DNA from: Negaprion brevirostris
Lineage: Eukaryota
Direction: 5' to 3'
NCBI GenBank assembly: GCA_030324005.1
Contig: JARDVH010000106.1
Coordinates: forward strand, 42,622,077-42,686,076
DNA: 64,000 nt
Below are positions 29,495 through 59,286 of the stretch, one piece after another; within the stretch, counting starts at the first letter, position 1; every line of letters begins with the position of its first letter. Made by a program: the position numbers and the translations under genes. The notes below the pieces were generated by a model, which saw nothing but the letters and a program-made list of their open reading frames with translations, was not told the DNA's origin and ran no database searches.

Positions 29495-29660
29495 GCGTCC
29501 AAACAACAAAACCTAAAACTCAAGGGAATGTAACAGCTGTGGAGGGTGATTCAGTAACCTTACGATGTGACGCTTCTGAAAAAAATGCCAAGATAGTACT
29601 GGTTGAATGGAATAAACTCAGAAACAAAACCACACTTGCTGTTAGCAGTTTAAACAGTAC
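29495..29660 (+). CDS. Ig V-set exon copy 1 (5' part; the rest falls in gap 29661-29760)
   Basis: Acceptor ctctttctctacctag, phase 1. Encodes (G)VQTTKPKTQGNVTAVEGDSVTLRCDASEKNAKIVLVEWNKLRNKTTLAVSSLNS with B-strand Cys and C-strand Trp. Paralogous to 32281-32598. Confidence 0.7.
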
Positions 29661-32600
29661 NNNNNNNNNNNNNNNNNNNNNNNNNNNNNNNNNNNNNNNN
29701 NNNNNNNNNNNNNNNNNNNNNNNNNNNNNNNNNNNNNNNNNNNNNNNNNNNNNNNNNNNNTAAACATAGCCCCTTTCGTAACATCACATAGTGTTTAGCC
29801 AATGAAGTACCCATGAAGTGTCGCTATTATTATAGTTTGGGTATCATGAAGGACAGGCTGCAAGTGTCATGAAAGTGATAGTGATAACATAATCTTCATC
29901 TATTGTGTATATTGGTTGAGGGATGAATATTGATCAGGAAATAATTCCCCTGTTCTTTATTGAATTAGTGTCAGGAGATCTTTTTACGTTCACCTGAGAG
30001 GGCAGATGTGACCTTGATTTAGCATCACATCCAAGAGACAGTGCAGGACTCTCTCACCACTGTATTAGCCTGTTAGCCTAGATTTTGATGTTTGTGGCTC
30101 TGGGATGGAAAATAAACCCACATCTTTTGACTTCAAAGTTGGGCATGCTATTAACTGAGGTACAGCTGAAATACTGGAATGATTTTTTTTGTGCTTTATG
30201 GCCACTGCACGCAAGGCTTTCAACTCTATGTATAGCACAAAACTTTCACATGACCTCTTCAGATATCCACCTGGATGTGTGCAGTTTGCAGCAGGAATCA
30301 CAAGACAGTGATCAGAAGTGTTGATGCTTTTCCTCTCTAAGTCCAGTCTGTAAAATATAATTCAAACTTTTATTGCTCCTTAGTTTTGACCAACTAACTC
30401 AGCACGCACCCGGGTATTGAAATCAGGACATTCAGGCTGACTGATGAGTTATGTGATCGCATTAATTCAAGAAATAAATACCGCATTCCACAACTTCCAG
30501 TCCTATATCCTCTATATAGTCACTGACAGCCTGAGTATCAGCTCGGCTCAAAAGCAGCTCCTTGTCTCTCTCTCTGTAACAAGGTCGTAGATTTAAGTCT
30601 CATGATTTGAATGTACATAATCTGGACTCAAATTTCAGTAGACTGTTGAAGATGCTCTAGCCTGACGGAGGTACTAATTGGAGCCAATCTGTCTCTTTGT
30701 TGATGTATGAACAAATTCAGTTGTGGTTTGGGCTCTGTGCTTTCAATGGGTTCAATTCCCAATCAGGAAACCTAGCTCTGCAGAGCAGGTTTGAGTGGCT
30801 GAATTTTCTGTTCCAGTGGTGTAATTTTTTAAAGAGCATCAAATTATTCTAATGTCTTGACCAACTTTCCATCTCATTACTCTTTGTGGGAACTAGAGTG
30901 TTAAAGTCAGCTTCTGCATTTACCTAGGCTGGAAATTTCCTTGGAGCTGCTCCCACTCCACTGTAATAGAATCACAAAACTATTTCTGCACATAAGGAGA
31001 TCATTGGATCCATTGAGTACATGTCAGGTCTCTGGAAGAACAATTTAGCTAATCCCACTCCCCATTTCTTCCCTCGTAAACCTACTTTTTTTTCCCCTTT
31101 CAAATGCAATTCTCTTTTGAAAGTCACAGATGAATCTCCCTCAAATACACTCTCAGGAAATGCATTCCAGATTCTAACCACTTGTTATGTAGAAAAAGAT
31201 TATGCTTCTGTGTTTTTGTCAATCACTTTAAGTCACTGTTCTTCGGTTACCAGTCTTTCCACCAGTGGAAACAGTTCCTTTATATCAACTCTGGCTTGAT
31301 CCCTCCTGATTTTGAGTCTGATATTCTGTCATCTTTCTCTAAGGTGAACAATCCCAGTTTCTCCAATCCATCCGCTTGACTGAAGTCTTTCATCACTGGA
31401 ATCATTCTTATATTTTTTGTTCTGCACCCATTTAATGCTGCTCTAAAGTGAGATGTCCAGAATTGGACAAATACTTCCAAATGGGGCAAACCTATAATTT
31501 AAAATAGCCCATCATAAACTCTTTGATTATATACTAAATGCAGAATCTATAAACCCCAAGATTTCGTAACTGCTCCCTCATTTTGGGCTACCTCCTTCAA
31601 TGATTGGCACATAAATACATATACATATATTACACATGCACACACACATCCCAAAATCTCTCTAGTATTGTACCTGAGACCAAGTGGTCACATGATGACA
31701 CGGCTACTAAAGGAGTTACACGTTGGGAGTTTTTCCTGGAGCACAGACAGAGTTGCAGCATGCAAGAGCTACTAACTGTACTTAATAAACTGTTGTTGTT
31801 ATAAGTCCTTGGTCACCAGCTGTGGGAACCCAGATTTCTACAATACCCATTTATTTGTTATACTCTTAATTTTGAGAGTACATAATCTGGATTCAAATTT
31901 CAGTAGACTGTTGAAGGTGCCTGAGGGGGTGCTAATTGGAGCCACAGCTATCTCTTTGTTAATGTATGAACAAATTCAGTTGTGGTTTGGGCTGTGTGCT
32001 TTCAATGGGTTGATGGAAATCATTGTTTAGGCAAATAAATGGATTTTCAACAATGTTGTTGCAAAGAAGCAAAAGCAATTCTAAGGAAATTCATAACCCT
32101 ACCAGACATCCTTGTCTATAAAACACTGCAGGACAGCCTAATGATGTGTGAGGGTTGTATACAGGTGCAAATTCTTTCTGGTACATCAGTATTTACTCTA
32201 ATTGTATCCACGTTTATTATAATAAAAACAATTTCAAAGTGAATTGATAATATCTTAATTCTCTTTCTTTCTCTACTTAGGAGTCCAAATATCAAAAACT
32301 AAAGAGAATGTAACGGCTGTGGAGGGGAATTCAGTAACCTTACGATGTGATTCTTCAGAAAAGAATGCCAAGATAGTACTGGTTGAATGGAATAAACTCA
32401 GAAACAAAACCACACTTGCTGTTAGCAGTTTAAACAGTACACATCATTTCAATCAGCGAATAAGAATGGAAGTCAAAGATCAACATTCCACAATCACAAT
32501 CCAAGAAGCTCTCCAATCAGACAAAGGCTGGTATTCCTGCATATTCCAAACCTATCCAAATGGAAAACAGGAGGACCAAATATATTTGGATGTAAAAGGT

Positions 32601-35600
32601 AAAGATAGAGTCTTAGAAAATATTCTACATGTATAAATTGCATATATATGGCAAAAACTAACACAATTGAAGAATCATAGAATCCCTACAGTGCAGAAAG
32701 AGGCCATTCAGCCCCTCTACACCAAAAGCAAACCCACCCAAGCCCTATCCACTTAACATCATGTATTTACCCTGCTAATCTCCCTGACACGAAGGGACAA
32801 TTTAGCATGGCCATTCAACCTATCCATCCATCTTTGCATTGTGGGAGGAAACCGGAGCATCTGGAGGAAACTCGTGCAGATACGGGGAGAAGGTTCAAAC
32901 TCCACACAGGCAGTCACCCAAAGCCAGAATTGAATCAATGGTTAGCACGGTGAGGCAGCAGTGATAACCACTGTGCTGCCCAGTAAATACTCTAACTTAT
33001 AGTTTTCCTTTTAATGTGATGAACAAAAAGATGCTCTCACTCCTGTCCACAGAGCCCCAGGAGTAATTCAACTCTCTCACTCCTATCCAGAGTTCCAGGA
33101 GTATCTCTATTCCATGACTCCTATCTTGAGTCCAGGAGCATCTCTACTCTTAGACTGCTGTCCACAGAGTCCCAGAAGTATCTCTACTCTCTCACTCCTG
33201 TCCACAGAGCCCCAGGAATATCTCTACTGTCTCATTCCTAACCGTTAAGTACATATGATTGCAAGTCCTTGGCCAAAACCTTTGACTTTCACAAGGATCC
33301 CCATTGGACTTATGAATGATGACGACATCTTTTCCTTACTACCCCCTTTGAGTTTCTGTGTACCCATATCTCTTGTACCATTAACACAACCTGTCCTTGC
33401 CTATTCCGGAATCTGTGTGTGACTGCTCCCATTCTTACATGTGGTCACCCATTCACTCCTCGCTTGTCAGCATTCCAGTTTCCCTTATCAGACATTAGCT
33501 TCCCACCACTTGGTCACCCTTCTGCCTGCCATCATTCCACACCATCCCCAACCTCTCCTTAACACTCTTGCAAGTGCCTGCTGCTCTTCTGCCTTCCATC
33601 ATGCCTCCTCCCCCCAAATCCATTGCAAATTCTTCCTGTCCTTCAGGTCCCCAACCTCCTGAAAAGCTTTCCTATCCCTTTGCCCTCCATTCACTTGTTA
33701 TCCTTCTCTTCCACCACCACCTCATTGAAATGCTGATTTCTGAATGTGCAATTCTGCCTGACTGTCTGGATACTGATGCACTGTGCTGTCCTTCAATAAA
33801 AATATAGCATTCCGATGGAGCGGACCCATACACCCCCCCCCAGTGGCAATATCGGTTTCTGTCTAATACTTGAACCCTGTCTGAATGCAACTGTAGTAAG
33901 AAGTCTCACAACACCAGGTTAAAGTCCAACTGGTTTATTTGGTAATAAACGCCACTAGCTTTCGGAACTCTGTTCCTTCATCAGGTGAGTGGGGAGTTCT
34001 GATCACCAATAGGGCATATAAATGCACACACAGTTTGCAGAACACTGATTAGAATGTGAGTCTTTACAGCTAATCAGCTAATCAAGTCTTAAAGGTAAGG
34101 CAATGTGAGTGGAGAGAGCATTAAGAATAGGTTAAAGAGATGTGTATTCTTATGTGTATTGTCTCTAGACAGGAATGAACGGTGAATGAACACCGCTCGA
34201 CAATTACTGGGCAAGACTGTTTCCTTCCTGTTGGCGAGCACCTCAGTGGTCACGGGCATTCGGCCCCTGATCTTTGGGTAAACATTCTCCAAGGCAGCCT
34301 TCATGACATACGACAGTGCAGAGTCACTGAGCAGAAACTGATAGCCAAGTTCCGTACACGAGGACAGCCTCAATCAGGATCTTGGGTTTATGTCACACTA
34401 TTTATAACCCCCATGACTTGCCTGGGATTGCAACATCTCTCTTACTGTCCCGTCTGGAGACAATACACATCTCTTTAACCTATATTTAATGCTCTCTCCA
34501 TTCACATTGTCTGCACCTTTAAGACTTGTTTAGCTGATTAGCTGTAAAGACTCGCATTCTAATCAGTATTCTGTAAACTGTGTGTGCATTTATATGCCCT
34601 GTTGGTGATCAGAACTCCCCACTCACCTGATGAAGGCACAGTGNNNNNNNNNNACTATAACCTGGTGTTGTGAGACTTCTTGCTGTGTTTACCCTAGTCC
34701 AACGCCGGCATCTCCACATCATAAATACAACTGCACAGTTGTGTCCTTGGAACTAAGATGGCAGCTAATGGGAGAAGACCAACCTGTAGCCCAGCATTCC
34801 ACAGGCATGACAACAAGACTAGCACAGCAGTGTGGCAGATAGACTACCTGCATGAAGCACTCATCTCAAAATTGCAAGCAGCGTGACATCCAACCTATGC
34901 ATGCTATCTTTTTCAAATATGATTCGGATCAACATGGTTTTTCACTGATTGGAAGGCAGCACATGATTCTGGCAAGGAGCTAATTTAACAAGCAGCTATG
35001 AGATTGTAATGAATGCATAGGGCGTACACATCACTACTCAGCAAGATGGCCAATTTGCCATTAATCCGCTATCAGGAAAATTACAAACTATTTTTACACC
35101 AGCAGGTTTCTGACTCTTTTGCTCCCATTAGATTCTCTGCTCCCATCCACCACTGGCACGATGGGAAACTTCCACCCATGGCCGGGAATTTAAAGTATCA
35201 GATTAGAATCTTCATTTTTTGTTATAATCATTGATAATTAATAATTGATTACAGTGGACAGAGGAAATTGTGGGGCATAGTGCTATAGGCACCAGTAATG
35301 GTGAAATTTGAATTCAATAAAAAAATTTGGAATTAAAAGTCTAATGAAAATCGTGACACTTGTCAGTTGTAAAAATCCACCTGGTTCACTAATATCTTTA
35401 GGGAAGGAAATCTGCCATCCTTACCTGGTCTGACCGACATGTGACTCCAGATCCATAATAATGGGATTGACTCTGAAATGGCCTAATAAACCATTCAGTT
35501 CAAGGGCAATAAGGGATGGGCAATAAATGCTGGTCCGGCCAACGATATCCACAGCTTGTGAATGAATAGGAAAAAGTTTAAGTAAGTAATTGTTTTGTCA

Positions 35601-38600
35601 TTAACAGATGTTAACATAACAAAGATTAAACAATCTCACATGGAATACTTCCCAATCTACATTTCAGGTGAGAAAGCTAACCAAATCCTCTTCCTGTATA
35701 ATTTGTTTGCTACTTTTTAAATTTCTATAAATAATTGTTAAATGTCCCTTACGCCAAATTATTGTTTTAAAATGGGAGGAATATGATGTAGAAAAGAATG
35801 ATATAGAAAACTTAAATGTATTTTGCAAATGTAAAAGAGAACATGAATATATTGATTATTTGTGAATTTAATTCTTCAGATCCTATATTAGCTATTTGTG
35901 TGTGGATGACTTGTGGCTCAATTGTAGCATCCCTATCTCTAGGCCAGATGCTCTGGGTTCAAGTCCCTCTCAGGACTTGTTGGCTGTGGAAGGAGCATTC
36001 ATNNNNNNNNNNNNNNNNNNTTTTTATAATGCAATGAGCAAGAAGTTGTATGACTGGCTACTTTTTGGGTCAGTTAACAAACAAAACAATTTGTAAAAAC
36101 TGTACTTTTGTGTCAATATTCAAATAAATGCAGCTTACAATCTTTTACTTCTCATGGATATATCTTACAAGATTGCAATTACTATCCATTAAAAGATAAA
36201 AGATACCGAGGCTTTCAATTCTGTATTTTTATTGCAGGCAAAATATTCCTCTGTGCACATATGTGGTGTAACACTGAAATAGAAGAGAATTATTTGCTGT
36301 TCCGTGTTGATGGTGGGAGATTCCAAATATAAATAATCTCAGTTGGTCAAGTTAAAATTCAGGTGGTAAACCAAAATGCAGTTCACAGAATCCCTACAGT
36401 ACAAAAGGAGACCATTCAGCCCATCGTCTGTACCGACCGCAATTCCATCCAGGCCCTATTCCCATAAGCCCACATGTTTACCCTGCTATTTCCCCTGACA
36501 CCAAGGGGCAATTTAGTATGGCCAATCAACCTAACCCACACATTTTTGGACCTTAATTCAGGTCATTGTCAGGAGCCAGCAGTACAAACAAAGCCTGAAG
36601 CCTTAAGCTCCCTCAGAAAGAAGATGCTGCATGCCATGATGCTGCCTTTTGCCTGGGAGATAAGAATAAGTGACAGATTCTAAGACAAGGGCTCTGTACA
36701 GACAGCCATATCCACAACTCATGGAACAATTTTCATGCTGCAACTGCATCAAGGGGCAATGTGAGAAGTACCACTGGATTGCTCTGCATTCCAATAGCTG
36801 ACAACCACAATTGGTATTTACATAGCCCTTTCAAAATAAGAAAGACAACTCAAGACCCTACTATGGAGCCACTATAAGACAAAATATGATACAGACCCTC
36901 TAAAGGGACATTAGGCTTTACAAGAAATGTGGTCAAAGAGGTAGGTTTTAAGGAATCTCTTAAAAGAGGAGAGAGTGGTAAATAGGAAAGAAAGTTCTTT
37001 CTCAAGTTTATTTATTAGTCATAAGTAGTCTTACACCAACACTGCAAATTAAGCTGCTGTGAAGATCCCCTGTTCAGGTACACTATGGAGAGTTTGGCAT
37101 GTTCAATTCACCTAACCTGCACATCTCTGGAGTGTGGAAGAAACTGGAGCACACAGGGGAAACCCACACAGACATGGGGAGAATGTGCAAACTCCACACA
37201 GACAGTGACTCAAGTCAGGAATTGAACCCAGGTCCCTGGCGCTGTGAGCCAGCAGTGCTAACATGCCATCCTAAGGAGGAATGGTTTTGGAAGGGAATTC
37301 CAGAGCTTAGGGTCAAAACAGTTAAAGGCACCATGTTTGATGGAGCGATTGAAATCAGGGATATTCAAAAGATCAGGATTTAATGAGTTTATATTGGAGG
37401 GTTCTGGGATTGGAGTTCACAGAGGTAGGAAGTAGAAAGACAATGCGCTGTTTGGAAAACCAGGATGAGAATTTTATAATTGCGTTTTAAAATGGATTGA
37501 GCAGGAGCCAGTTAGGTCAACGAGAACAGGTGGTGGGTGAATAAGTTTTCATGCAGGTTAGAAAACAGGTAGCAGAGTTTGTAATGACCTCAGAATGACA
37601 GAGGGTAAAATGCGGGAGACCAGGCAGGAGTGCATTAGAATGGCTAACGCTGGACATAACAAAGACACAGTTGAGGATTACAACAAAAGGGGACATTCTT
37701 ACAGAGGTGGAAAGAAGCTATCTTAGTGATGGCACGGATATTTGGTAGGAGGTTCATGTTGGGGTCAAATATAACATGAGGGTATGAGCAATCTGGTTCA
37801 GCCACAAACAATTGCCAGGGAGAGGAGTGAAGTCAGTGGCAAAAGATCAGAGTCTGCGGCGGGGACCAAAACCAATTGTTTCTATTTTCCCAATATTTAA
37901 TCAGAAGAATTTTCTGTTCATCCAGTACCTGATGCCGAACAAGCAGTACGACATTTTACAGAAAGCTATGGTTGAGGAAGGCAACAGTGCAGTAGAGGTA
38001 GGTGACATCTGTGCACTTGTGGAAATGGACATGTTTTTGGAGGAGTGAGGTCTCACCCAGTTAAATGCTGGAGGAGAGGCATTGGAGGAGAATGGTGTAA
38101 CCAACCATGTCAAAAGCTGCAGACAGTTTGAGAAGTGTGATGAGGAATAGTTTATCTTTTGGTACTGTGGCAAGAACGAGAGTCTGATTGGAGGTATTCA
38201 GGGTAGGCCGGACATATATTTGTGAGGTGACAACAGATCCAAGGAACTTAGCGTGAAGAGGTGAGGCAGTAGTTTTCAAGTATAGAGATGTCAAAGGTTT
38301 TTTTTGAGTAGGGGGTGATAAGACAGATTTGAGGGAGAGAATCTGAGGAAAGATAACAGTTAACAATATTAGCTAAAATGGGAACCAGGAAGGGAAGTTA
38401 GATTGGCAGTTTAGTTGGGATTTGCTCAAGAGAGCAAGAGATGTGCCTTATGGACAAGATGAACTCAAAGGGTTTGAGGTAGATAGGAGAGAAACTAGAG
38501 AAAGAAACAAGCTCAGGATTAAGGCCTTGATCTTATTGGAAAAGTAATCTGTGGGTACCTCCCACTTGTTGGGGGTGAGAATAGATGAGACAAGGGAAAA

Positions 38601-47600: not shown

Positions 47601-50600
47601 AATACATGGTCAAGGAGGTTTATTCCCACAATCTGAATCTTAGCATCTAGCAGCAGTGCCACAAGGAGTCTAATAACCTCACGTGGGTGGTCAAAGTCAG
47701 TGAATCCATCTTCAAATGACTTTTCCTACCACCATGCCACCAACTTCTCAGGCTGCTCAATGCACCATATCCTCAACATTTGTCCAGCAGCACATTGGCA
47801 TTCAGGACTTAACATTCAAAGCTAGATTCGCCCCATTTCTTACAAAATAGTACACTATAGAAAAGAAGTGTCAGGGGACAGGGACAACTTAATCACCTAA
47901 GAAAATGTCTTAGAATCATGGGGTCAGCTACGACAGGGCCTGTGGCATGCATGATCACTAAGAGTANNNNNNNNNNNNNNNNNNNNNNNNNNNNNNNNNN
48001 NNNNNNNNNNNNNNNNNNNNNNNNNNNNNNNNNNNNNNNNNNNNNNNNNNNNNNNNNNNNNNNNNNGCATGATCACTAAGAGTACTGAGGACTCTTGCCT
48101 TGTGGCCCTTCTAAACTCCCAGTTAATTCTCATCTTGCCAACTGGCATACTAAGAAAGTTTTTGATAGTGCAACCATGAATCTCCTGTCCCCATCCTGCC
48201 TCACTTCTCTCAGGCCAACCTTCTCCTTCTGAGCTCTTGCTTTCAGACATCCAGCTCCAAGTTGGCACTAGCCATTTGGCGGAGCCTACCCCCTCTTTGG
48301 TGTTTTCTCCATGTCTCTTTGGTTCTGCAGACTCAGAGGCACTGACACTGTTGCCCTCATATATATGTAGCAGCATTTGTATGGACAGATTGGCTGGTCC
48401 CCTGCCCCCTCTGTGAGGATTCAGCAAAACTGTGCAATAAGTTCAAAACACTCCAGAGTACCTTGCTCAAAGAGAAATTCTTAAAAAGGGCCTTATCAGC
48501 AATTTGAACACATGGATCAGTAAACAATGCTGGAGCAGGTCCCATTTTGTAATTTGTTGTTTGAGGAGTAACAAATTAAAATGTTGCTGGGACTGACATG
48601 GTCCAAATTTTAAACTTTGGCATATTAGAATCACAGAATACTACAGTGCAGAAGAGGCTGTTAGGCCTATCAAATCTATACCAAAGCATGAAAGGCCTTG
48701 GACTGCCCATCTAATCCAAGAGAAAACTACCTAAGTCAAACCAGCCCCTCTTTATAACTTAAGTGTTCCATCCCAGCTAACATCTTGGTGAATCTGTTAT
48801 AGAGGCATCATGTCAGCCATTTGATTCACAGGCTTCTAGGTCACTGTTTTTGCCTGCACAGGCACCTGTCTCTTGATGCAATCCTGTCCACAAAGCTGAA
48901 AGAGAAATTTCTTATCCTTGATTTCCTATCTATGTGGCAGAACAAGCAATGTATATGACCACAATTTTTAGAAAAGATAAAATATCAATCATATCAACAT
49001 AAATGTGTTTTAGAAAATGGTCTCCGACAGATATGGGCAAAAAGAATTCTGCAGCATCTGTATCAAAGGTACGGTAAATACATAAATCTGGCCAGGTTTG
49101 TTATATTCATTGAGTCAACTAAATTTTTTTGTGCTATAATCAGAAATAATTTTCTTTTGGTGACTGGGCAATTTCTCCTTGAAATTTTAATTAGTGGTAG
49201 TCAAATTAATTGGCCTAGATTTTGCAAAGAAATGGAAAGTTTAATGGGTTCCCTGTTATTAATGTGTAAACCATCCAGCAACTTATGGCGAGGAGGAGCT
49301 ACCCCATGAATAGTGAATCACCGAAAGTTATTGTTGACCTCACTGAAAACAACACCTCACCCAACCTCCCTGTTAATTTCATGAAAGCTCTATTTAAAAA
49401 TTAATTTCCAATTGAATTCGCCACATAGCATTAGGGCTGCTAATTAATAGTGTCAGAACCCTTGCGATGATGAGATTTATGTCCCTGCAATGTCCCTCAA
49501 TCTTTTTGGCTCAGAATTTATTTTTATTCCATGGCACATGCTCTTCGCTGGCAAGGTCAGCATTTGTTGCCCATCCATAATTTGTTTTGAGGAGGTGCTG
49601 CTAAGCTGCCTTCTTAAACTCCAGAGTCAATCTATGGGCTGTCAGGATGGAAGTTCCAGATGAAGGAAAGGCAAAAGATTCTAAATTAAGATGGTGCGTG
49701 GCTTGGGTGGCGTTCCCATTNNNNNNNNNNGGGTGGGGGGGAGGAGAGGGGGGAGTTGTTGGTGCTAACATCTCTTGCTCGTATCCATCTAGAGGTAAAG
49801 GTCATGGATTTGGAAGGAGCCTTGGCAGATCCTACATTGCATCTGGTATGTGTAGACGCTGCTGTCACTGTGTGACAATGGTGGTGGGAGTAAATTCAGT
49901 GGATGCAATGCCAGTCGAGCAGACTGTTTTGTCCAGAATGGTGTTGAATTTCAAGTACTGCTGAGCTGCAGTCATTCAGGCAAGTGGAGAGAGTATTCTA
50001 TCACACTCTTGACTTGTGCTTTGTAGATAGTGGACAGATTTTGGATATTGATGGTTACAGATTCAGTGGAATAAATGATGTTAAATGTCAAGAGCAGATG
50101 GTTAGATTTAGATGGTCTTGCCTGGCACAATTCTTTGCAAAATTGTGTGGCATGAATTTTATTTGTCACTTATCAGCTGAAGCCGGAATGTTGTCCACAT
50201 CAATCTGTGTATGGACATAGACTGCTTCAGTATCTGAGGAATTATGAATGGAGTTGAACATTGTGCTTTCATCAATGACCTTATGATGGAAAGAAGATCA
50301 TTGATGAAGCAGCTAAAGATAGTTGGGGTGGGGACATTCACCTGAGGAACTCCTGCAGCAATGTCCTGTGACTGAGATGACTGGCACCTAACAACCACAA
50401 CCATCTTCCATGTGCCTGGAATGGCTCCAACCAGTGGAAAATTTTCTCCAATTCCCACTGACTTCAATCTTTTTGGGGCTCCATGATACCACATTTGGTC
50501 AAATGTGGCCTTGATGTCACAGTTATTCACTTAATTACATTTTCACCGACGGCTATTGCAGGATTTGAACCCAGAGTATTAGTCATAGCATTAACCTCTG

Positions 50601-53600
50601 GATTACTCATCCAATAACATTACTGCTACACTACTTTCCCCCTACTCATTTGAAAGGACTTTTAAATTAAGCCTAAACACAATTTATGATAATGTAATAT
50701 TTACTGCCTTTTGGTCATTGCAATAGAGATCATGGTACAAACTAGTATAGGTGTGAGGTGATTTCTAGCCCAGTGGTATACCATTCTCATAGCAAACAAT
50801 AGTTCATATGTTTTATTTTTGAGAAAATATGGCCTGCACTTGTAAACTGATTTTCAGTCATTTATACCAATCAAAAGTATTAGAGGGAACCTCAATTATA
50901 ATTCATTTCTTCACTTACAGTTTAATGAGAATTGACTAGAAAATGATAATGATCTTTTAAAAATGAACTTTGGTACAGCAAACAAAATATGCCAGCAGGA
51001 CTTAAATAAAAAGCCTGGCAAAATTAATGAAAATTAATGAAGTATACTAAAACAAAACGTTGAATTTAAGAAGTTACAAAAAGTATGGAGTTATGTAAAG
51101 GTGAATGATTGTAATGTGCAGCTCACTTGCCATGAGGTTCACCGCAAATGAAAACAGAGAAACCACACAGAACCTTTCTTACTTCCTTGTCTAATATCAC
51201 TATTCACATTATTGGCAATATTCTCTAATGGAAGGAGGAGGATGTGGTAAACTTTATGATTAGAATCACAGAAAGGTGCATGCAGCTCACCATGTCTGTA
51301 CTAGTGATCCACTCTTCTGTGATCTTAACCCAACTCTATCAATGGAGGAGACTCAGTTCTCAACCTCATTGAACAGGCACAAGGTACTTGCTTCCTGTCT
51401 GGATGAGGAAAAGGACTATAGGGAGGAGGAACTAAGTGACGACTGTACTGTGGTGCAGGAGGTCATTAAAAAGGGAGGAGCAAAAGTAAGAGTGGAGCAA
51501 AAGTAAGGAGACAAATAGCATTTGTAAGCAGGATGAAGAGTCCCACATGGTATGTTGCCTACCTGGTGTCAGGGTAAGGGCGTCTCTAATTGGCTTGAAA
51601 GGATATTGGTGTGGTAAGGGGAAGATCCTATTGTGGTCCATGTTGGGATAAACAACATTGGCATGAATAGGCAGGATGGTCTGTTTGGGGACTATCAGGA
51701 ACTAGGAACCAAATTAAAGAACAGGTCCTCAAGGGTTATAATCTCTGGATTATTATCTGAGCCACATGCGAATTGGCAAAGAGAGATGATTAGGGAGGTA
51801 AACATGCGGCTAAAGGAGTGAGAAAAGGGGGTTCCATTTCATGGGGCACTGGCAACATATTGGAATAGGAGAGAACTCCACCTGAACCGATCTGGGACCA
51901 GGGCCCTAGTGGAAAGGCTACATAGGGAAATCACAAGGACTTGAACTAATTAATGGGGGGACAGGGCTCAGGAAAAGTTGGTAAAGTATCCAGAACTAGT
52001 CTTAGACTACAGAGTATGGAAATTGGCAGAATAAAACTTCAGACACAGCAAATAAAGGGAAACTATGGGAAGCAGAGCAGTCAACACAGCATTGAAGGTG
52101 CTGTACCTAAATGCATGCAGTACACGGAACAAGGTAAATGAGCTGGAAGCACATATTGTAATTGGAAGGTACGATGTTGTGGGCACCACAGAGACATGGC
52201 TGCAAGGAGATCAGAGGTGGGATCTAAATATCCAAGGATATGTGTCTTATCAAAAGGATAGGCAGATGGTAGGAGGAGGTGAGGTTGCCTTATTGACGAG
52301 AAATAAAATTAAATCATTAGCAGGAAGTGACATCAGATCCACGGCGTAGAATCTGAAAGGGTAGAGTTGAGGAATCATAAGGGAAAAAGACCCTGTTGGG
52401 AGTTATGTACAGGCCCCCTAGAAGTAGTCAGGATGTTGGACAGAAAATAAATCAGGAGATAGAAAAGAATGTAAGAAAGGCAGTACTTGGAAATGGATGG
52501 TTTAAGTAGGGCTGAGTAAGCACAACTTTGTCAAAGGGAGGTCATGTCTGACAAATCTGTTAGAATTCTTTAAGGAGGTAATAGGAAATTAAACAAAGGA
52601 GAGCCAGTAGATATGATTTATTTGGATTTCCAGAAAGCCTTTGACGAGGTATCTTACAGGAGGCTGCTAAATAAACTAACAGCCAATGATGTTAGATGCA
52701 AGGACTGGCATGGATAGAAGATTGGCTGACAGGCAGAAGACAGAGAGTGGGGATAAGGGGGTCCTTTTTAGGATGGCAACTGGTGACTAGTGGTGTTCAA
52801 CAGGGGTCAGTGTTAGGACCACAACTTTTCACTGCACATATTAATGATCTGGAAGATGGAACTGAGGGCATGGTTGCTAAATTCATGGATGATATAAAAG
52901 ATATGTAGAAGGACATGTAGTGTTAAGGAAGTGTGGAGGCTGCAGAATGACTTGGACAGGCTAGGAGAGTGGGCGTATAAATGGCAGACAGAATACAATG
53001 TGGGAAAGTGTGAGGTTATGCACTTTGGGAGGAAGAATAGAGGCATAGACTATTTTCTAAATGGGGAAAGGCATCTGAAATCTGAAGCACAGAGGNNNNN
53101 NNNNNNNNNNNNNNNNNNNNNNNNNNNNNNNNNNNNNNNNNNNNNNNNNNNNNNNNNNNNNNNNNNNNNNNNNNNNNNNNNNNNNNNNNNNNNNNCAGAA
53201 TACAATGTGGGAAAGTGTGAGGTTATGCACTTTGGTAGGAAGAATAGAGGCATAGACTATTTTCTAAATGGGGAAAGGCATCTGAAATCTGAAGCACAGA
53301 GGCACTTGGGAGTCCTGGTTCAGGATTCTCTTAAAGTTAACATGCATATTCAGTTGGCAGTTAGCAAGGCAAATTCAATGTTAGCATTCATTTCTAGAGG
53401 GCAGGGACATATGCTGAGGCTGTATAAGGCTCTGATCAGAACCCATTTGGAATAGCGTGCGCAGTTTTGGGCCCCGTAACTAAAGGAGGATGTGCCGGCC
53501 TTGGAGGGGGTCCAGAGGAGGTTCACAAGAATGATCCCAAGAATTAAGGGTATGTCATATGAGGAGCACTTGAGGAGCCTGGGTCTATATTCCATGGAGT

Positions 53601-56600
53601 TTAGAAGGATGGGGTGGGGGGTCTACTGAAACTTACAGAATACTGAAAGGCCTCGGTGGAGTGGACATGGAGAGAATGTTTCTACTAGTAGAAGAGACGA
53701 GGAGGGCATAACCTCAGAGTGAAGGGATGGTCCTTTAAAACTGAGATAAGGAGGAATTTCTTCAGTCAGATGGTGGTGAATCTATGGAACTCATTGCCAC
53801 AGAGGGCTGTGGAGGCCATGTCTCTGCCTTTAAGACAGAGAAAGGTTCTTGATCAATACGGGGATCAAGCGTTACAAGAAGGTGACAGGAAAATGGGGAT
53901 GAGAATATCAGCCATGATTGAATGGCAGAGCAGACTAGAAGGGCTGAATAGCCCAAGTCTGCTCCTATATCCTATGGACTATGACTGAATAAATTTTGGC
54001 TTGCAGGTTTTGCGTCTCCAATTTGTACAGCAAGTATTATGCACAGCCACATGATGTGACATTAGCTGTATTTCATGGGATGATGCATAAAATAAATTGG
54101 AGGCATTTAGGGTGGATGATGGACATAGAAGGGCAGCAACCAGATTCAATAAGGCATCACTGAAATTACTGCTGTCTACAGTCAATATTACAAAGTATCA
54201 ATGGGTAATACACAAGTGAAAAACTATAATTTAAGTAGTTCAATCTGACTTACCTATGATATTGTGAGAATCACTCTTACAGATGACCCAACTTTGGTCT
54301 TTGATTAATTCTGTGGTCTCTTTAATCCAACAACCTTGGAGAAGACTCCTGACAAAATATTCAGCAAAGGAATGAGAAGTTAAGAATCCTCTCCTGCCTA
54401 CCTTTTGTTATATGTGTGAATAATGCAATCAGATAGTATGTCAAATTGTGAGGTCTGTAGTTAAGACTGGTACTGATCTTTTGCGAATATCACACTGTCA
54501 TTAGCCATTGCACCCACTCTTTAGAAATATGCATAACTGTGTGCTTAATACTTTTCCTGCTCCCTATATGGTCTACTTCTGAGAAAGACCCTAAACGATA
54601 CAAAGCACCATGAAGCATTCACACTTCAGACACAATGAATAAAACAAATTGGACAGGATTCCAGATGAAGGAACTTAACTCAAAGTGCTACTGAACAGGA
54701 AGGAAGGAAGGTGCTTTTCTTAATCATCAGATGCCTCAAAGTACTTGACAGCAATGAAGTTTTTTATTAAGGCGTAGTCACTGTTGGAATGTAGGAAACA
54801 TAACAATTAATCTATGCACTGGGTGGGAATGGTAGGAATGCAGTATGCATTAGTGAGGTAGCAATTTCCACAAAACGTGTTGACATGCCCAGACTTGAGG
54901 AGCTAAACACTTACCTTTGATAGTGTGCTATTCTATGATGTTATCAATGAATGGGTTTACCCTAGGATGAGTTTGACTTCAGTAAGTACAGAGTTTGGAT
55001 TTTGGTCAGATGTTAGGGATTGTTAAAATCCCAGTTGATGTTCATACTGGATGGGAAAATTCCAGAATGAAACCCTGGCTCAAAAGATTGTAACTTTTAC
55101 CTTTTTTTAATAAAACATGGAAGAACTGAGTCACAGCACTGCTAATTAGAAAGAAACATTTATTAACCATGTAAAGTTTGATTATGATAAAATACTCCCT
55201 TGATCCCCCCCATAGTTCACAAATGTGTGTAGTTTTCAAAGGTAGCACCCTACTCTGAAACCAAATAGCTGATGTCACTCAACTGATCTTCCATGAATTT
55301 TTCTCATAATCTCCGCAAATAAAACTCCACTCTCANNNNNNNNNNNNNNNNNNNNNNNNNNNAAATGATATTTTCCATCAGCTGTTCGCATTAAAACTGC
55401 ACTCCAATTATCATGTCCATAAAAGCTTCTGCTCCACTTTTTAACAAAGACAAAGTTTCTGCTTCACCTTTTAACAAGGAATCCAGCACCAGGTTTTCCA
55501 CCTCACCTTTCAGATTTATTTTGTATTAAGTGCTTTTACGTAAACACAGGCATACAGTCCTCAATAGAATAATATTGTTTCAGACACCGGGAATAGGAAC
55601 AACAAACCACATGATTGCATCAGATACGTGGCTTGTATGTCACCAATCTCATCAGCTCTCCTCTTCCCAGGTCTGACTTTGACTTTCATAAGCAGTATCC
55701 TGTTTTGAAAGACAATTCTTCTTAGATCCTTTTTACTTCAATATTCCTGGAGCTTCTTTTCCATCCCCTGGCTTCTACAACTTGTTTTCTTGCATCTTAC
55801 TCCATTGTATGGCTTCTCTGCTTCTAGCTGAGCTATGAGTTACTTTCTCTTTAATTCCCAGCTCCAAATGCTATAACTCCAACCAAAACCAAACTCAAAG
55901 AGCCTATGAACCCTAAAGATGCCTCTGGTTACTAAACAATGACTTCATCCTTTTCCCAGTTTGTTTGCATTTTCACATCGTAACCTTCTCTTAGCACATT
56001 AGAAGCATAGTTTGAACCAAAACCAAAAAAAACCTCTGTCTAACATAAATCTAACTATAGGTTTCCCCTTCCTCACAGAGCAACACTAAAATAAACCCAC
56101 TTAAAACTGTACCTGATTTCTAATATTTAGCAATACAAATATAGATCACGTAAAACTACCTCTGTTTTGCTGACAAGGTCAAATTTTACAGAAAATTAGC
56201 CATTACATAAATATATATGTTTGTTCTAAATCAGATAGATTTTTTGTTTGCAACATTTTCAATTCAGTGCATGATGCAAGTGCCTTGGGTTTTATGAAGT
56301 TAAGTCAGAAAATAACTATTTATGTCGAAACACAAGCGTCATTGGTTGCATGAGTTAACAACACTGTTATGCAAACTTGGAATTGTTGAATTTGATAGCT
56401 GTTTACAGTGTAAAGAAACATGATTTATGTCTTTCTAGCACCAACCAAATCCATTGGCTCCTCCAAGCTATCTACACAAATTACCATTGGTGTAGTTCTG
56501 GCAGTGCTAGCCATTGGAATGATTTTTATGTTGCTACGCTATGTTCATGTAAGTAACAAAAAAATTCCTGTGTTTAAACATAATTATACATTTGATATTT

Positions 56601-59286
56601 TGGACTATTTTAAGTAATTTAATAAACATAATAATGTTTTCTTTAGTTTGTTGCCTCAAAGCATTTTTACATTTGTCTAATTAATATGGAATTGATAAAC
56701 TGAATTATGGTTATTCAAACATTTTCTTAAATCTTCAATTCTTCTGGTTTATTAGAAATCTTGCTACTTAAAAATGCAAATTAAACCAATATTTGGAGAC
56801 TGAAAAGCCTAGGTTAGGTATGCATCTCATTCAAGATAACCAACTTTATTAAACAACAACAGCCATTTATGTAATGAAATGTTCCCAGAAGCATTATAAG
56901 ACCATGGCAAGCCACATCAGGAGATATTAGATCAGATGACCAAAAGCTTGATCAAAGAGGTGGGTATTAAGGAGTGCCTTAAAGGGGGGAAGCATGGTAG
57001 AGAAGGAGGGAATTCCAGAACCTGGGGTCTAAGCATCTAAAAGCACAGCCACCAATGGTGGAGCGCTTTATTACTGGAAATGCAAAAGAGACTAAAATTA
57101 GGGGAGGGACATTGTGGGGCTGGGAGAGATTACAGAGATAAAACACAGAAAATAGGAGCAGAAGTAGGTCATTTGGTCCATCAAGACTACTCCGCCATTC
57201 ATTATGATCGTGGCAGATCATCTAATTCAGAAGCCTGTTCCTGTTTACCCTGATGTCCTTCAATCCCTTTAGCCCAAGACCTATATCTAGCTCCTTCCTG
57301 AAAACGTACAATATTTTGGCCTTAACTGCCATCTGTGGCAGAGAATTCCACTCTCTGGATGAAAAAATTTCTTCTCATCTCAAACTGAAATGGTCCATGC
57401 CGTATCCTCCGACTGTGAATCCTGGTTCTGGGCTCCCCTTCTATACAGGTTAGAATTTTATAGGCTAATATGAGATCCCCCCTCATTTTTCTAAATTCCA
57501 GCAAAAATAATCCTAACTGACTCTATCTCTCCTCATGTGTCAGTCCTGCCATTCCAGTAATCAGTCTGCTAAACCTTCAGTACACTCCCTCTGCAGCAAG
57601 AACATCCTTCCTCAGGTGAGGAGACCAAAAATACACACAATAGTCCAAATGTGATGTCTCACCAAAGCCCTGTATAACTGCAGCAAGATATCCCTGCTCC
57701 TGTATTCAAATTATTTTGCTATGAAGACCAACATATAATTTGCCTTCTTCACCGCCTGCCACATCAGCAGGTACAGGCAAGACCATGAAGTGATTTGAAT
57801 GCCAAGATGTGAATTTGAAAGTCAAGATATTGCTTTATCGAGAAGGTCAGTGAGCACAGAGCTGATAAGGGAATTGTACGCTGCAAGTTAAGAGACAAAC
57901 AACAGTTTTGGTTGATCTCAACTTTACAGATGGTAGAATGTGGCAGATCAGCCGGGACAGTGTTGAGTTTAGTGATAATAAAGATAAGAATGAGGGTTTC
58001 AGCAGCAGATGAGCCGAGACAGGGACGAGGTCTTGGGGCATTACTAAGGGAGGTCTTGGGGCATTACTTAATGCATAAAAAGGTTTTATCATGTTGCCTT
58101 TGAGTATTTTGTCAACCACCTCTGTTTCACAGAGGCACAGAATTGTTATGATACCGAATGAGTTTTCATGATGCCATGGATATGAAATTGAAGCTCATCT
58201 CAGGATCAAATGTGAAAAAGCTGGCTTAATCTTAGACTATTGCCAAGGAGGGGGTTGGAGTCAGTAGCTGGAGATCCAAGTTTGGATAAGAGACTGAAAA
58301 CAATGGCTTCAATCTTCCCGATATTTAATTGCACAAAATTTCTGCTCATCCAGCACTGGACGTTGGGTATACATTCTGATAATTAAGAAATGGTGGAGGA
58401 TTCGAGAGAGGTGGTGGTGAGGTAGAGGTGGTGGTGTCGGGAGCATAAACATAATACTGAAACTGCTTTTGGATGATGTCACTGAGAATCAGCATGTAGA
58501 TGAGAAATAGGTGGAGGACCAAGGATAGATCCTTGGGTACCCCAGGGGAACAGGAAGAGAAGCCATTCTAAGTGATTCAATAGCTGTGCTTTGATAGATA
58601 AGGATGGAGCCATGTGAGGGCATCCCATCCATCTAAACAACAGTGAAGAATCATTGGAGGAAAATGGGGTGCTCAGTTGTGTCAAGACTGTAGAGAGATT
58701 GAGAAGGACAGAGAAGAAAAGTTTACCTTTGTGACAGTCACATAGGATGTCATTTGTGACTTTGGTAAGTACAGTTTCAGAAGTGCAACAGGGGATTACT
58801 TTTCAATGGCAGTTACACCATTATATGATGCTTTACTGGAGATGAGGCTGAGATGGGAAAAGGTTTTTAAAAAAGAGTAGACTATTCAGTCCCTTGAGTC
58901 TGTTCAGATACCCAATCAGATCATGAGAAAAACATATCAATCTCTCATTTTTGAATACTTCAATTGATGCAGCATCCAGTCTTTTGGGGGAAGAAAATTC
59001 TAGATTTCTACATCCCTTTGTATATTCCTAAATTAATTTGTAGACAGGTGATGCTTATATCAGAAAACTTTGATGACGATATCAATTCATGTTTTTTTTG
59101 TCTGACTTTCTTGTTTTGCAGCGGAGGAAATCCAGAGTCAATTTACCAAACCAAATCAATATAATCTTGAAAAACACATCTGACATGGATAATCAGGACA
59201 ACAAACAGCAGCTGAACAGGCCAATGGCAACCAACAGCGATTGTGAAGATGTGTGCGATAACTATATAAACGTCTCATTACACTAG
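29495..59286 (+). CDS. Spliced gene for a type-I Ig-superfamily receptor, TIGIT/CD96/CD226-like: V exon(s), stalk, TM, cytoplasmic tail with ITT-like Tyr motif; leader exon not securely located
   Basis: Exons 29495-gap, 32281-32598, 35608-35667, 56439-56548 and 59122-59286 have AG/GT boundaries where visible. Their phases are compatible (1-1, 1-1, 1-0, 0-stop) and join into an open frame V-stalk-TM-tail. Confidence 0.8.
30613..32011 (+). repeat. Diverged ~140-bp direct repeat pair (30613-30752 and 31878-32011)
   Basis: Both copies read gtacataatctgga.tcaaatttcagtagactgttgaag...gtatgaacaaattcagttgtggtttgggct.tgtgctttcaatgggtt. Confidence 0.9.
30968..31500 (-). mobile_element. CR1 3' fragment
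   Basis: Minus ORFs PHLEVFVQFW...LEKLGLFTLEK and VRIWNAFPESVFE. Confidence 0.8.
32281..32598 (+). CDS. Complete Ig V-set exon copy 2, nectin/PVR-receptor family
   Basis: Acceptor ttctctacttag, donor AAAG|gtaaag, 318 nt, phase 1-1. Contains VTLRC...VEW...DKGWYSC and the T(F/Y)PxG motif (TYPNG). The segment DKGWYSCIFQTYPNGKQEDQIYLDV resembles human TIGIT DTGEYFCIYHTYPDGTYTGRIFLEV (recalled, not searched). Confidence 0.92.
32673..32982 (-). mobile_element. tRNA-derived SINE (HE1-like)
   Basis: Same family as 1408-1740. Confidence 0.85.
33034..33240 (+). repeat. Minisatellite, ~38-40-bp unit, ~5 copies
   Basis: Consensus approximately ctctcactcctgtccacagagccccaggagtatctctact. Confidence 0.85.
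33895..34722 (+). mobile_element. Penelope-like element with inverted 5' pLTR and GIY-YIG endonuclease C-terminal fragment
   Basis: ORF 34182-34478 MNEHRSTI...LPVGEHLSGHGHS..DLWVNILQG...EQKLIAKFRT. Arms at about 33895-34173 and 34448-34682 are inverted repeats. Confidence 0.9.
33953..33987 (-). ncRNA. Minimal hammerhead ribozyme (PLE type)
   Basis: CAC CUGAUGA A GGAAC AGA GUUCC GAA AGCU A GUG with fully paired stem II. Confidence 0.78.
35270..35570 (+). mobile_element. SINE (SacSINE/DeuSINE-like)
   Basis: gggaaggaaatctgccatccttacctggtc core and gggcaataaatgctgg...gaatgaat tail. Confidence 0.8.
35608..35667 (+). CDS. Probable short stalk exon (D)VNITKIKQSHMEYFPIYIS
   Basis: Acceptor ttttgtcattaacag, strong donor TCAG|gtgaga, 60 nt, phase 1-1, no stop, carries N-glycosylation sequon NIT. 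Confidence 0.5.
36385..36550 (-). mobile_element. SINE 3' fragment (HE1-like)
   Basis: cagaatccctacagt...ggggcaatttag...caatcaacctaacc. Confidence 0.75.
36800..38500 (-). mobile_element. Degraded L2 LINE with nested SINE (about 37000-37268)
   Basis: Minus ORF LITLLKLSAAFDMVGYTILLQCL matches the L2 RT motif LLDLSAAFDTVDH. Confidence 0.75.
38785..38946 (+). mobile_element. Rex1/Babar-like LINE fragment preceded by a SINE head
   Basis: KFLGVQITNNLFWS...AIVKK resembles the Rex1-type RT C-terminal FKFLG...LSW motif. Confidence 0.6.
40722..40992 (+). mobile_element. tRNA-derived SINE (HE1-like)
   Basis: gcagcatggtggcacagtgg...tgtgtggagtttgcac...tccaaagatgtgcagg. Confidence 0.8.
40993..41139 (+). 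repeat. 21-bp minisatellite, 7 copies
   Basis: Consensus cctgcaccatggagttcatgt. Confidence 0.9.
41148..41667. repeat. ~95-bp inverted repeat (41148-41241 and 41566-41667)
   Basis: aacctcacaaaaatatataccttagtgaa...gatccacagca is reverse-complementary to tgctgtggatc...ttcactaaggtgtatatttttgtgaggtt, with a few mismatches and one indel. Confidence 0.9.
41690..42537 (-). mobile_element. Harbinger-type Myb/SANT-like gene remnant
   Basis: FSESALARMLNAVEERHNILYP..G...QCQKGVNDALRPAR|gtaagt, with the same intron position as the copy near 27060. Confidence 0.7.
43244..43942. repeat. 69-bp near-perfect inverted repeats at both ends of a gap-bounded contig
   Basis: 43244-43312 versus 43874-43942, one mismatch seen. 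The AT-rich spacer contains a short (TA)n near 43677-43695. Confidence 0.9.
44665..45850 (-). mobile_element. LINE 3' region with nested insertions
   Basis: Minus ORF TIYKAQVRSVMEYPPLAWMSAAP..LKKLNTIQDKAAHLIG; tail near 44670-44760. Confidence 0.8.
45020..45420 (-). mobile_element. Tx1/L1-like LINE 3' fragment nested in the LINE above
   Basis: Minus-strand remnants NLLLA...CPSTAAILVAGCPWRRS / RVSLEKEH resemble Tx1 ORF2 C-termini; T-rich tail on the minus strand. Confidence 0.5.
46750..47600 (-). mobile_element. Degraded L2-like LINE (endonuclease-side fragment)
   Basis: Frameshifted remnants and composition like the other L2 copies in the window. Confidence 0.4.
49525..50530 (-). mobile_element. 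LINE RT and 3' fragment
   Basis: Minus ORF DIKATFDQMWYHG...AGVPQ...PTIFSCFINDL contains RT motifs. Confidence 0.85.
51350..53985 (+). mobile_element. Long, internally deleted, inactive CR1 LINE (ORF1 esterase, APE endonuclease, RT, 3' tail)
   Basis: VHVGINNIG...VIISGLL (SGNH esterase); YLNACSTRNK...GTTETWL (APE); QGSVLGPQLF..INDL...KF.DD (RT). Many stops and frameshifts, and a large deletion near 52490. Confidence 0.93.
55011..56175. mobile_element. Solo-LTR-like repeat
   Basis: TGTTAG...CTGACA termini and homology to 1950-3365; no clear target-site duplication. Confidence 0.45.
56439..56548 (+). CDS. Transmembrane exon (A)PTKSIGSSKLSTQITIGVVLAVLAIGMIFMLLRYVH
   Basis: Acceptor tatgtctttctag, donor CAT|gtaagt, phase 1-0. 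A 19-aa uncharged hydrophobic stretch is followed by basic residues. Confidence 0.85.
56850..58800 (-). mobile_element. L2 LINE 3' region with nested CR1 3' fragment (about 57140-57760, minus)
   Basis: L2 remnants QGSILGPP and STIGGCAF...FWNSL; nested CR1 remnant LEFRKMRGDLILAYKIL. Confidence 0.8.
59122..59286 (+). CDS. Terminal cytoplasmic exon RRKSRVNLPNQ...SDCEDVCDNYINVSLH*
   Basis: Acceptor ctttcttgttttgcag, phase 0 matching the TM exon donor. Begins with basic stop-transfer RRKSR, has YINV near the C-terminus and ends at TAG. Confidence 0.85.
   Translation, partial: RRKSRVNLPNQINIILKNTSDMDNQDNKQQLNRPMATNSDCEDVCDNYINVSLH

What the first reader, a model, noticed from the sequence alone, without database searches (positions are those of the whole stretch)
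29495..59286. Cartilaginous-fish TIGIT/CD96/CD226-family immune receptor hidden as split exons
Seen: four to five exons splice in frame into V domain(s), short stalk, uncharged TM and a tail of about 58 aa. Known: T(F/Y)PxG after the F-strand Cys marks the nectin/PVR family and its NK/T-cell receptors TIGIT, CD226, CD96 and PVRIG. Inferred: this is a shark member of the nectin-receptor checkpoint axis. Its compact layout resembles TIGIT, while the N-terminal strands (WNKLRNKTTLAV) also recall CD96 domain 1, so orthology is unresolved and it could inform the origin of this family in jawed vertebrates.
Basis: partly seen in the sequence, partly recalled or inferred. Interest (0 to 1): 0.8.

Follow-up and report, generated by a model that had tools for sequence, protein, structure and literature searches.

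The report
Twin shark TIGIT receptor genes
This stretch holds real exons of a shark immune receptor that is very likely the counterpart of the human checkpoint TIGIT, mixed with exons of a second copy whose ligand-binding part is almost identical but whose signalling tail differs, so sharks likely carry a pair of receptors that would sense the same ligand and signal differently.

Summary
The exons are real, with canonical splice sites and compatible phases. They are not one 4-5-exon receptor. RefSeq shark relatives fall into two one-V-domain types: A (V, TM, tail with one acidic Tyr motif) and B (other leader, V, stalk, other TM, two YENV motifs). The window holds A's TM and tail, B's leader and stalk, and two V exons (one cut by a gap); B's TM and tail lie on unplaced contigs. 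A is very likely the TIGIT orthologue: best PDB hits, ZBTB20 57 kb downstream as in human, V tree with bony-vertebrate TIGIT (94/95, alternatives not rejected), shared ITT-like tyrosine, separate CD226 candidate elsewhere. RefSeq already labels these genes TIGIT-like, so existence is not new. Not found in my literature searches: A and B V domains are 92-97% identical within species while their post-V parts are 24-31% identical, and V trees group by shark order (AU p 1.5e-62), as in gene-converted paired receptors. No ITIM, AX6G lock absent; a nectin complex is predicted (0.81 vs 0.00, possibly from memory). No V-TM spliced read was seen.

The parts
16863..16932 (-). Signal-peptide exon of paralogue B (70 nt, ATG to phase-1 donor)
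   Evidence: tblastn to type-B proteins P0005-P0007, 65-75% identity, E 2e-10 to 6e-8; donor GTAAGT. Opposite strand to the other exons: inverted gene pair or mis-oriented contig, not resolved.
29495..29660 (+). V': 5' half of a second IgV exon, cut by an assembly gap; likely the V of one of the two paralogues
   Evidence: 87.7% identical to V over 212 nt incl. acceptor flank; last 77 nt before the gap identical to 32364-32440; only one assembled copy of the V 3' half in the genome
29661..29760 (.). 100-N assembly gap where the rest of V' would lie
   Evidence: that it is a collapsed repeat is inference
32281..32598 (+). Complete IgV exon (TIGIT-type), 318 nt, phase 1-1; T(F/Y)P key present, AX6G lock absent
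   Evidence: contigs of runs guessed to be RNA from related species cover 32280-32598 and stop at the donor
35608..35667 (+). 60-nt stalk exon of paralogue B
   Evidence: aligns to the stalk of type-B P0007 (weak E 1.1) and sits where B proteins have a 19-20 aa stalk; canonical sites, phase 1-1
56439..56548 (+). Short stalk plus uncharged transmembrane exon of gene A
   Evidence: 72% to P0001, E 3e-19; phase 1-0
59122..59286 (+). Cytoplasmic-tail exon of gene A with stop codon
   Evidence: 81% to P0001, E 5e-35; single copy in the genome
59263..59274 (+). ITT-like tyrosine motif YINV after an acidic patch; no ITIM tyrosine follows
   Evidence: sequence; aligns with Y(F/L)N(V/I) of bony-vertebrate TIGIT-like tails

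Best explanation
The window holds interleaved exons of two neighbouring one-V-domain receptor genes: gene A, very likely the shark orthologue of TIGIT, and a paralogue B whose V exon is likely kept nearly identical to A's by repeated gene conversion, so that both would bind the same nectin-type ligand and signal through different tails. Shown: the exons, the two protein types in other sharks, the identity pattern, the ZBTB20 neighbour. Inferred: A is leader-V-TM-tail; its T(F/Y)P key is predicted to dock in a nectin's AX6G pocket; ligation would lead to phosphorylation of the single ITT-like tyrosine and SH2 docking (Grb2-type, with SHIP1 in mammalian TIGIT), most likely damping lymphocytes, with no ITIM. 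B is leader-V-stalk-TM-two 66-nt tail exons, each with YENV; the distal one fits the ITIM consensus in most species, so B would be the stronger SH2/phosphatase recruiter, tuned by isoforms lacking one YENV exon or the TM. Neither TM is charged, so neither would couple to DAP12/FcR-gamma. The near-identical V copies likely broke the assembly here.
For: Two protein types in RefSeq sharks. Complete B exon set in this genome: leader and stalk in the window, TM on C53253, two tail exons on C15008, all open with canonical sites. V identity A vs B within species 96.9, 91.7, 93.9% against post-V 31.2, 24.1, 24.7%; orthologues across orders V 72.9%, post-V about 65%; across all pairs same-order A-B median 88.5% (n=9) vs different-order A-A 64.6% (n=23), B-B 65.3% (n=8); AU test rejects a clade of the 5 shark B V domains, p 1.5e-62. 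V' vs V: 77 identical nt up to the gap. TIGIT: top 9 PDB hits; ZBTB20 exons 57-67 kb past the stop, opposite strand, human order DRD3-ZNF80-TIGIT-MIR568-ZBTB20 (PMC3261728); shark V plus bony TIGIT form one group, 94/95 in 34 rows and 92/72 in 72 rows; 8 of 20 looked-up single-domain hits are named TIGIT(-like), none CD96 or CD226. Complex with a shark nectin-like V: score 0.81, best of 3 controls 0.00, runs agree in at least 92% of contacts, partner pLDDT 86; the mark was reached by 51 of 78 solved and 2 of 108 mismatched microbial pairs (eukaryotes 71 of 105 and 2 of 126); solved TIGIT-nectin complexes exist, so the pass may be from memory.
Against: No read or contig joint from V to TM was seen; the RNA status of the covering runs is a guess. 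A's leader was not found. Which V belongs to which gene and the genes' orientation are unresolved: the assembly links V to the B stalk, while a contig of run X13 leaves the window sequence 4 nt after the V donor and V shares a 2-aa gap with Mustelus A. AU tests do not reject shark V with CD226 D1 (p 0.26) or with CD200-like domains (p 0.26); no verified CD96 or PVRIG domain was in the trees. The window tail scores 8.2 bits on a bony-TIGIT tail profile, above 500 of 500 shuffles (max 8.0) but not above a CD226 tail (8.7). AX6G is absent in 21 of 21 chondrichthyan V domains and the (V/I)(S/T)Q glutamine in 20 of 21; Asn at Y+2 is kept in only 6 of 15 A proteins. DRD3 was not found in the upstream screen. 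No expression, binding or signalling data.
Confidence: 0.78

Rival explanations
1. One receptor spliced from all five + strand exons (two V domains, stalk, TM, tail), CD226- or CD96-like.
For: All five exons are on one strand in that order and their phases are compatible.
Against: 20 of 20 relatives have one V; the stalk occurs only with the other TM and tail; B's own TM and tail exist on unplaced contigs; the two V domains of CD226 fall apart in the tree whereas V' and V are 88% identical in DNA.
Confidence: 0.04
2. A single complex locus in which alternative leaders, V exons and 3' modules are mixed by alternative splicing to give A-type and B-type proteins.
For: In this assembly A and B exons are interleaved on one strand; no read links were obtained.
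Against: In three species A and B proteins carry distinct V sequences with their own leaders; B's leader is on the opposite strand here; the region has 22 gaps.
Confidence: 0.08
3. The V similarity comes from separate recent duplications or exon swaps in each shark order, or from V' being an allelic or dead copy, not from continued gene conversion between two old genes.
For: Protein trees cannot tell conversion from one-off replacement; V' is only half assembled, so its intactness is unknown.
Against: B-type leader and post-V parts are shared by four shark orders and a chimaera, so B is old; homogenised V appears in at least three separate lineages; 12% divergence with a 6-nt indel is too much for ordinary alleles (own knowledge).
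Confidence: 0.12
4. Gene A is not TIGIT but a shark-specific or CD96/CD226/PVRIG-type nectin-family receptor that happens to lie in the same cluster.
For: AU tests do not exclude CD226 or CD200 affinity; two RefSeq models are named CD226-like; lock motif and ITIM missing.
Against: Single V, TIGIT best hits, ZBTB20 neighbour, tail alignable to bony-fish TIGIT, and a separate two-V CD226 candidate on C59. Strict AX6G is also missing in 13 of 16 bony-vertebrate TIGIT-like proteins.
Confidence: 0.06

Closest known systems
TIGIT (human and other bony vertebrates)
   Same: One IgV, short stalk, uncharged TM, short tail; T(F/Y)P key; acidic patch plus ITT-like tyrosine; neighbour ZBTB20; best PDB and profile hits.
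   Different: No ITIM tyrosine after the ITT-like motif; AX6G lock and (V/I)(S/T)Q glutamine absent; N-glycan sequons near the C-C' loop (21 of 21) and the lock loop (19 of 21); present as two paralogues.
[quoted passage not shown] XP_078088121.1 type A, XP_041066634.1 type B)
   Same: Same genes: 86% V identity to the Mustelus model, same exon content.
   Different: Automatic names do not separate A from B (one A model is named CD226-like) and say nothing on the shared V.
Gene-converted paired receptors such as Siglec-11/Siglec-16 (PMC5701461, abstract)
   Same: Neighbouring paralogues whose ligand-binding exon is homogenised within each lineage while signalling parts stay distinct.
   Different: No charged TM residue in either partner (0 of 20), so not the usual inhibitory/DAP12-activating pair; both have tyrosine tails; the pair seems far older than the primate cases.
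CD226 (DNAM-1) and CD96
   Same: Nectin-receptor family, key motif; CD226 also signals by one Tyr/Asn ITT-like motif (PMC9263721 passage).
   Different: Two and three Ig domains; weaker PDB matches; a separate CD226 candidate lies on another contig.

Membership tests
PVR/nectin-receptor family | N-terminal IgV domain | tested here: met
   Pfam V-set E 3.9e-10
PVR/nectin-receptor family | T(F/Y)P key in the FG loop (PMC10486284) | tested here: met
   TYPNG; 20 of 21 chondrichthyan V domains have T(F/Y)P
PVR/nectin-receptor family | AX6G lock | tested here: not met
   0 of 21 chondrichthyan V; strict form in only 3 of 16 bony-vertebrate TIGIT-like proteins, so it is not diagnostic outside mammals
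PVR/nectin-receptor family | (V/I)(S/T)Q motif on the C strand (motif recalled) | tested here: not met
   Gln replaced (Leu in the window) in 20 of 21; kept in 15 of 16 bony TIGIT-like proteins
PVR/nectin-receptor family | Binds a nectin/PVR ectodomain | tested here: inconclusive
   Predicted complex 0.81 vs best control 0.00 with key Tyr91 on the nectin lock, but like complexes are solved; no experiment
TIGIT orthologues | Single V, type I TM without charge, short tail | tested here: met
   (architecture from relatives; V-TM joint not seen in reads)
TIGIT orthologues | Position next to ZBTB20 | tested here: met
   BTB and zinc-finger exons at C106:42.738-42.748 Mb; human order in PMC3261728
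TIGIT orthologues | V domain groups with TIGIT | tested here: inconclusive
   94/95 and 92/72 support, alternatives not rejected, p 0.26
TIGIT orthologues | ITT-like tyrosine motif | tested here: met
   YINV after acidic patch; Tyr invariant in 13 of 13 aligned A proteins, Asn in 6 of 15
TIGIT orthologues | ITIM after the ITT-like motif (mammalian feature, PMC9263721) | tested here: not met
   No second tyrosine in the window tail; also absent in sturgeon, gar, bowfin, bichir tails, so it limits 'works like human TIGIT', not orthology
TIGIT orthologues | Expression on T/NK cells and inhibitory function | not testable with these tools
   No run on record as RNA
CD226 / CD96 | Two or three extracellular Ig domains | tested here: not met
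   One V in 20 of 20 relatives
Gene-converted paired receptors | Ectodomains more alike between paralogues than between orthologues | tested here: met
Gene-converted paired receptors | One partner activating through a charged TM residue | tested here: not met
   0 of 20 TM segments charged
Gene-converted paired receptors | Opposite signals, same cells, same ligand | not testable with these tools
   needs experiments

The most novel reading that the evidence does not exclude
TIGIT dates to the first jawed vertebrates as an ITT-only receptor (the ITIM came later, in tetrapods), and cartilaginous fish have kept it for some 400 million years as one half of a paired-receptor system of an unusual kind: two uncharged-TM receptors with a shared, repeatedly converted nectin-binding domain and opposite tyrosine tails, A activating or neutral and B inhibitory, doing within one locus what TIGIT and CD226 do in mammals.
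Probability: 0.25. Interest if true: 0.75.

Novelty: new variant of a known kind. Interest (0 to 1): 0.52.

Why it matters
A 2026 survey of human IgSF genes places TIGIT, CD96 and CD226 in an amniote group (PMC13262535, Table 1 and Table S2); a syntenic shark gene, plus TIGIT-named proteins in sturgeon, gar, bowfin and frogs, moves TIGIT to the jawed-vertebrate root, as was shown for PD-1 (PMC12151841). The tails give a natural test of the open question whether TIGIT's ITT-like motif or its ITIM carries the signal: fish versions have only the former. The A/B pair offers one binding domain with two natural tails, a clean comparison of signalling outputs, and an old example of concerted evolution in a checkpoint receptor. 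It also warns that gene models at this locus can be chimeric.

Tried and rejected
No RNA holder listed for the V exon (12 rows only guessed as RNA); one search was swamped by repeats and showed no V-stalk or V-TM joint among the 15 of about 1800 joints printed, so splicing is not shown. Type-A leader: profile scans of 264 kb and of 824 kb of held DNA, a degenerate pattern and a short protein query in the whole genome found nothing convincing; a gap or unplaced contig may hide it. No optional A-type stalk exon found. B's post-V part found no relative outside Carcharodon in a word-based search (weak: it missed known B proteins) and no Atlas hit above 0.82. Unplaced B contigs could not be anchored to window gaps. 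DRD3 not found upstream: motif screen of all ORFs of 45 aa or more and Pfam on 121 ORFs (120 of the 223 longest plus one). No Rfam match, including miR-568, in 124 kb. No stand-alone fold was obtained. My 'CD96-like' labels in the trees were guesses and PDB did not confirm the one tested, so CD96 is not tested by tree. A first motif count failed by a regex fault (lock columns) and was redone. Rejected: two-V CD226-like receptor; V' as plain allele. Literature searches for shark TIGIT or the pair listed no paper describing it; the library lacks most subscription papers, and supplements of shark genome or single-cell papers were not searched. Earlier scan notes: one textless note on this window, nothing by words or sequence.
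Full report
OBSERVATION. The window is a gapped draft stretch (22 N-runs) at G000:C106:42622077-42686076. V is a V-set domain whose top 9 PDB matches are TIGIT (E 4e-10 to 3e-9), ahead of CD226 (4e-7) and CD96 (4e-4); a profile of 13 relatives gives 2e-13, 2e-10 and 2e-7. The nearest named protein is Mustelus XP_078088121.1, 86% over V; 7 of 9 first hits are RefSeq 'TIGIT-like', 2 'CD226-like'. The genome is therefore likely a carcharhiniform shark (tree); I did not identify it further.

TWO GENES, NOT ONE. The relatives (23 hits, all chondrichthyan) are of two types. Type A: short leader, V, TM, tail ending in an acidic patch and one tyrosine. Type B: longer leader, V, a 19-20 aa stalk, a different TM and a tail with YENV motifs. 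The window's TM and tail are type A (72% and 81% to P0001). The 35608 exon is the B stalk, and a B leader lies on the minus strand at 16863-16932. A whole-genome search with a B protein found B's TM on the 877-nt contig C53253 and its two tail exons on C15008, open and with canonical sites. None of 14 A proteins has the B stalk, none of 6 B proteins the A TM, and all 20 have one V. Two genes need two V exons; V' matches V at 87.7% over 212 nt and exactly over its last 77 nt before the gap, and only one V 3' half is assembled. I infer that near-identical V copies collapsed. Which V belongs to which gene is open: the assembly ties V to the B stalk, but a contig of run X13 with no mismatch over 31964-32602 continues for 51 letters unlike the window, and V shares a 2-aa gap with Mustelus A. 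A's leader was not found. Contigs from runs guessed to be RNA (related species, 13-18 differences) cover V and stop at or within 3 nt of the donor in three studies, one spanning 32280-32598 inside a 1077-nt record: a weak hint of splicing, not a V-TM joint.

CONCERTED V EVOLUTION. In the three species with both proteins, A and B V domains are 96.9, 91.7 and 93.9% identical, their post-V parts 31.2, 24.1 and 24.7%; between Carcharodon and Heterodontus orthologous V domains are 72.9% and post-V parts about 65% identical. Over 13 shark proteins, same-order A-B pairs have median 88.5% (n=9), different-order A-A 64.6% (n=23), B-B 65.3% (n=8), A-B 66.3% (n=31). The V tree of 21 rows groups A with B in Lamniformes (100/97), Orectolobiformes (100/99) and Heterodontus (94/92), and a clade of the 5 shark B domains is rejected (AU p 1.5e-62). 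The Callorhinchus protein is B-like after V (37.5% to Heterodontus B, 20.7% to A), while A's tail type is shared with bony vertebrates, so both lineages likely predate the chimaera split (about 420 million years in the listed abstract of PMC6238376). Gene conversion is the inferred cause, by analogy with Siglec-11/16 (PMC5701461, abstract); DNA of other species was not available.

ORTHOLOGY OF A. A BTB exon and zinc-finger exon lie on the opposite strand 57-67 kb past the stop; the Atlas cluster sharing most features is ZBTB20 (227 of 256; score 0.90, tied with ZBTB49) and PDB gives ZBTB20 fragments 199 and 143 bits, below or among three multi-finger proteins. Human TIGIT lies in the order DRD3, ZNF80, TIGIT, MIR568, ZBTB20 (PMC3261728 passage). 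Upstream lie two V exons that group together and resemble CD200R weakly, a two-V CD200-like gene, syntaxin and NSUN-like genes; that these match human 3q11-13 is recalled. DRD3 was not found. The A profile's single-domain hits (26 of 150 listed were read, 20 looked up) include TIGIT-named proteins of sturgeon, gar, bowfin, an elephantfish, three frogs and a turtle (8 of 20), the rest unnamed, uncharacterised or nectin-like. Shark V domains join these with 94/95 (34 rows) and 92/72 (72 rows), apart from a PDB-verified CD226; AU tests do not reject grouping with CD226 D1 or CD200-like domains (both p 0.26), so the V tree alone is not decisive. A two-V CD226 candidate lies on C59.

MECHANISM. Family binding uses an AX6G lock and T(F/Y)P key (PMC10486284, PMC9263721 passages). 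The key is kept in 20 of 21 chondrichthyan V domains, the lock in 0 of 21, but strictly in only 3 of 16 bony TIGIT-like proteins too. A predicted complex of V with a nectin-1-like V of this genome scored 0.81 against a best control of 0.00, runs agreeing in at least 92% of contacts, partner pLDDT 86; mark reached by 51 of 78 solved and 2 of 108 mismatched microbial pairs (71 of 105 and 2 of 126 in eukaryotes). Tyr91 sits on the nectin lock and the nectin's tyrosine on Leu33, Val47, His54; since TIGIT-nectin structures exist this may be memory and does not name the true ligand. The A tail ends in DNYINV; 18 of 20 bony hits print Y(F/L)N(V/I); a profile of their tails scores A tails 2.2-27.2 bits, B tails -0.7 to 3.2, 21 other tails up to 8.7 (a CD226), the window tail 8.2, above all 500 shuffles (the bony set was found with an A profile, so this is not fully independent). 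A second tyrosine follows only in some tetrapod and one unnamed sequence. In mammals TIGIT's ITT-like motif recruits Grb2 and SHIP1 and can inhibit alone in mouse cells (PMC12402281 passage), while CD226's similar motif activates (PMC7851444, PMC9263721 passages), so the sign is not fixed by the motif; I put damping for A at about 60%. B has two 66-nt tail exons with YENV, the distal fitting the ITIM consensus in 3 of 6 proteins and in this genome; isoforms lack one such exon (P0029, P0031) or the TM (P0005). No TM is charged (0 of 20).

NOVELTY. That sharks have TIGIT-like genes is in RefSeq. In print, within the library, I found no description: searches (listings read). PMC13262535 (passages, section 8 part 1, two supplement rows) files TIGIT under Amniota; PMC12151841 (listing, one passage) names TIGIT only in a reference; PMC7286890 (passages) reports nectin-1 and -3 in shark and PVR only in placentals; PMC5413580 (passages) covers mammals; PMC3569986 was not held. 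The A/B pair with a homogenised V is the part that looks undescribed. Verdict: new variant of a known kind, interest 0.52.

Noticed in passing
G000:C59:98.01-98.02 Mb (L036:1474-1827 -, L033:1483-1911 -): Two V exons 9 kb apart; the first has AX6G and TFP and best matches CD226 in PDB (E 4.5e-14, nectin-1 close behind): candidate shark CD226.
   Followed up: partly
G000:C121:3.3-6.2 Mb (L026, L027, L030, L037), C160 (L029), C96 (L031), C11760 (L040), C97 (L034): Cluster and singles of nectin/PVR-like V exons, candidate ligands; L026 best matches nectin-1.
   Followed up: partly
G000:C106:42.18-42.53 Mb (L042, L048, L069, L070, L012): Ig cluster upstream: CD200-like gene with two tandem V exons, a CD2/2B4-like V, and two CD200R-like V exons on opposite strands (one with a C2 exon).
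   Followed up: partly
G000:C106:42.04-42.35 Mb (L088, L083, L067): NSUN-type methyltransferase exon, single-exon syntaxin (STX19-like, name recalled) and a fibrillar collagen C-terminal exon within the Ig cluster region.
   Followed up: no
G000:C15008 (L039 3945-3874 and 2299-2243, -): B's two tail exons are both 66 nt with YENV at the same place, suggesting a tandem exon duplication that doubled the motif.
   Followed up: partly
window 43244-43312 and 43874-43942: A 700-nt contig between two gaps has a 69-nt inverted repeat (98.6%) at both ends: orientation ambiguity in the assembly inside the TIGIT locus.
   Followed up: no
window 30606-30752 and 31871-32011: Low-copy 147-nt direct repeat (88%) between V' and V, same divergence as the V'/V flanks; unexplained.
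   Followed up: no
window 32281-32598 and relatives: N-glycan sequons next to the ligand-binding face are conserved in cartilaginous fish (21 of 21 near C-C', 19 of 21 in the lock loop) but rare in bony TIGIT-like proteins.
   Followed up: partly
window 51200-53960 and many short repeats: Decayed LINE (CR1-like, recalled) fragment and abundant SINE-like repeats fill the introns.
   Followed up: no
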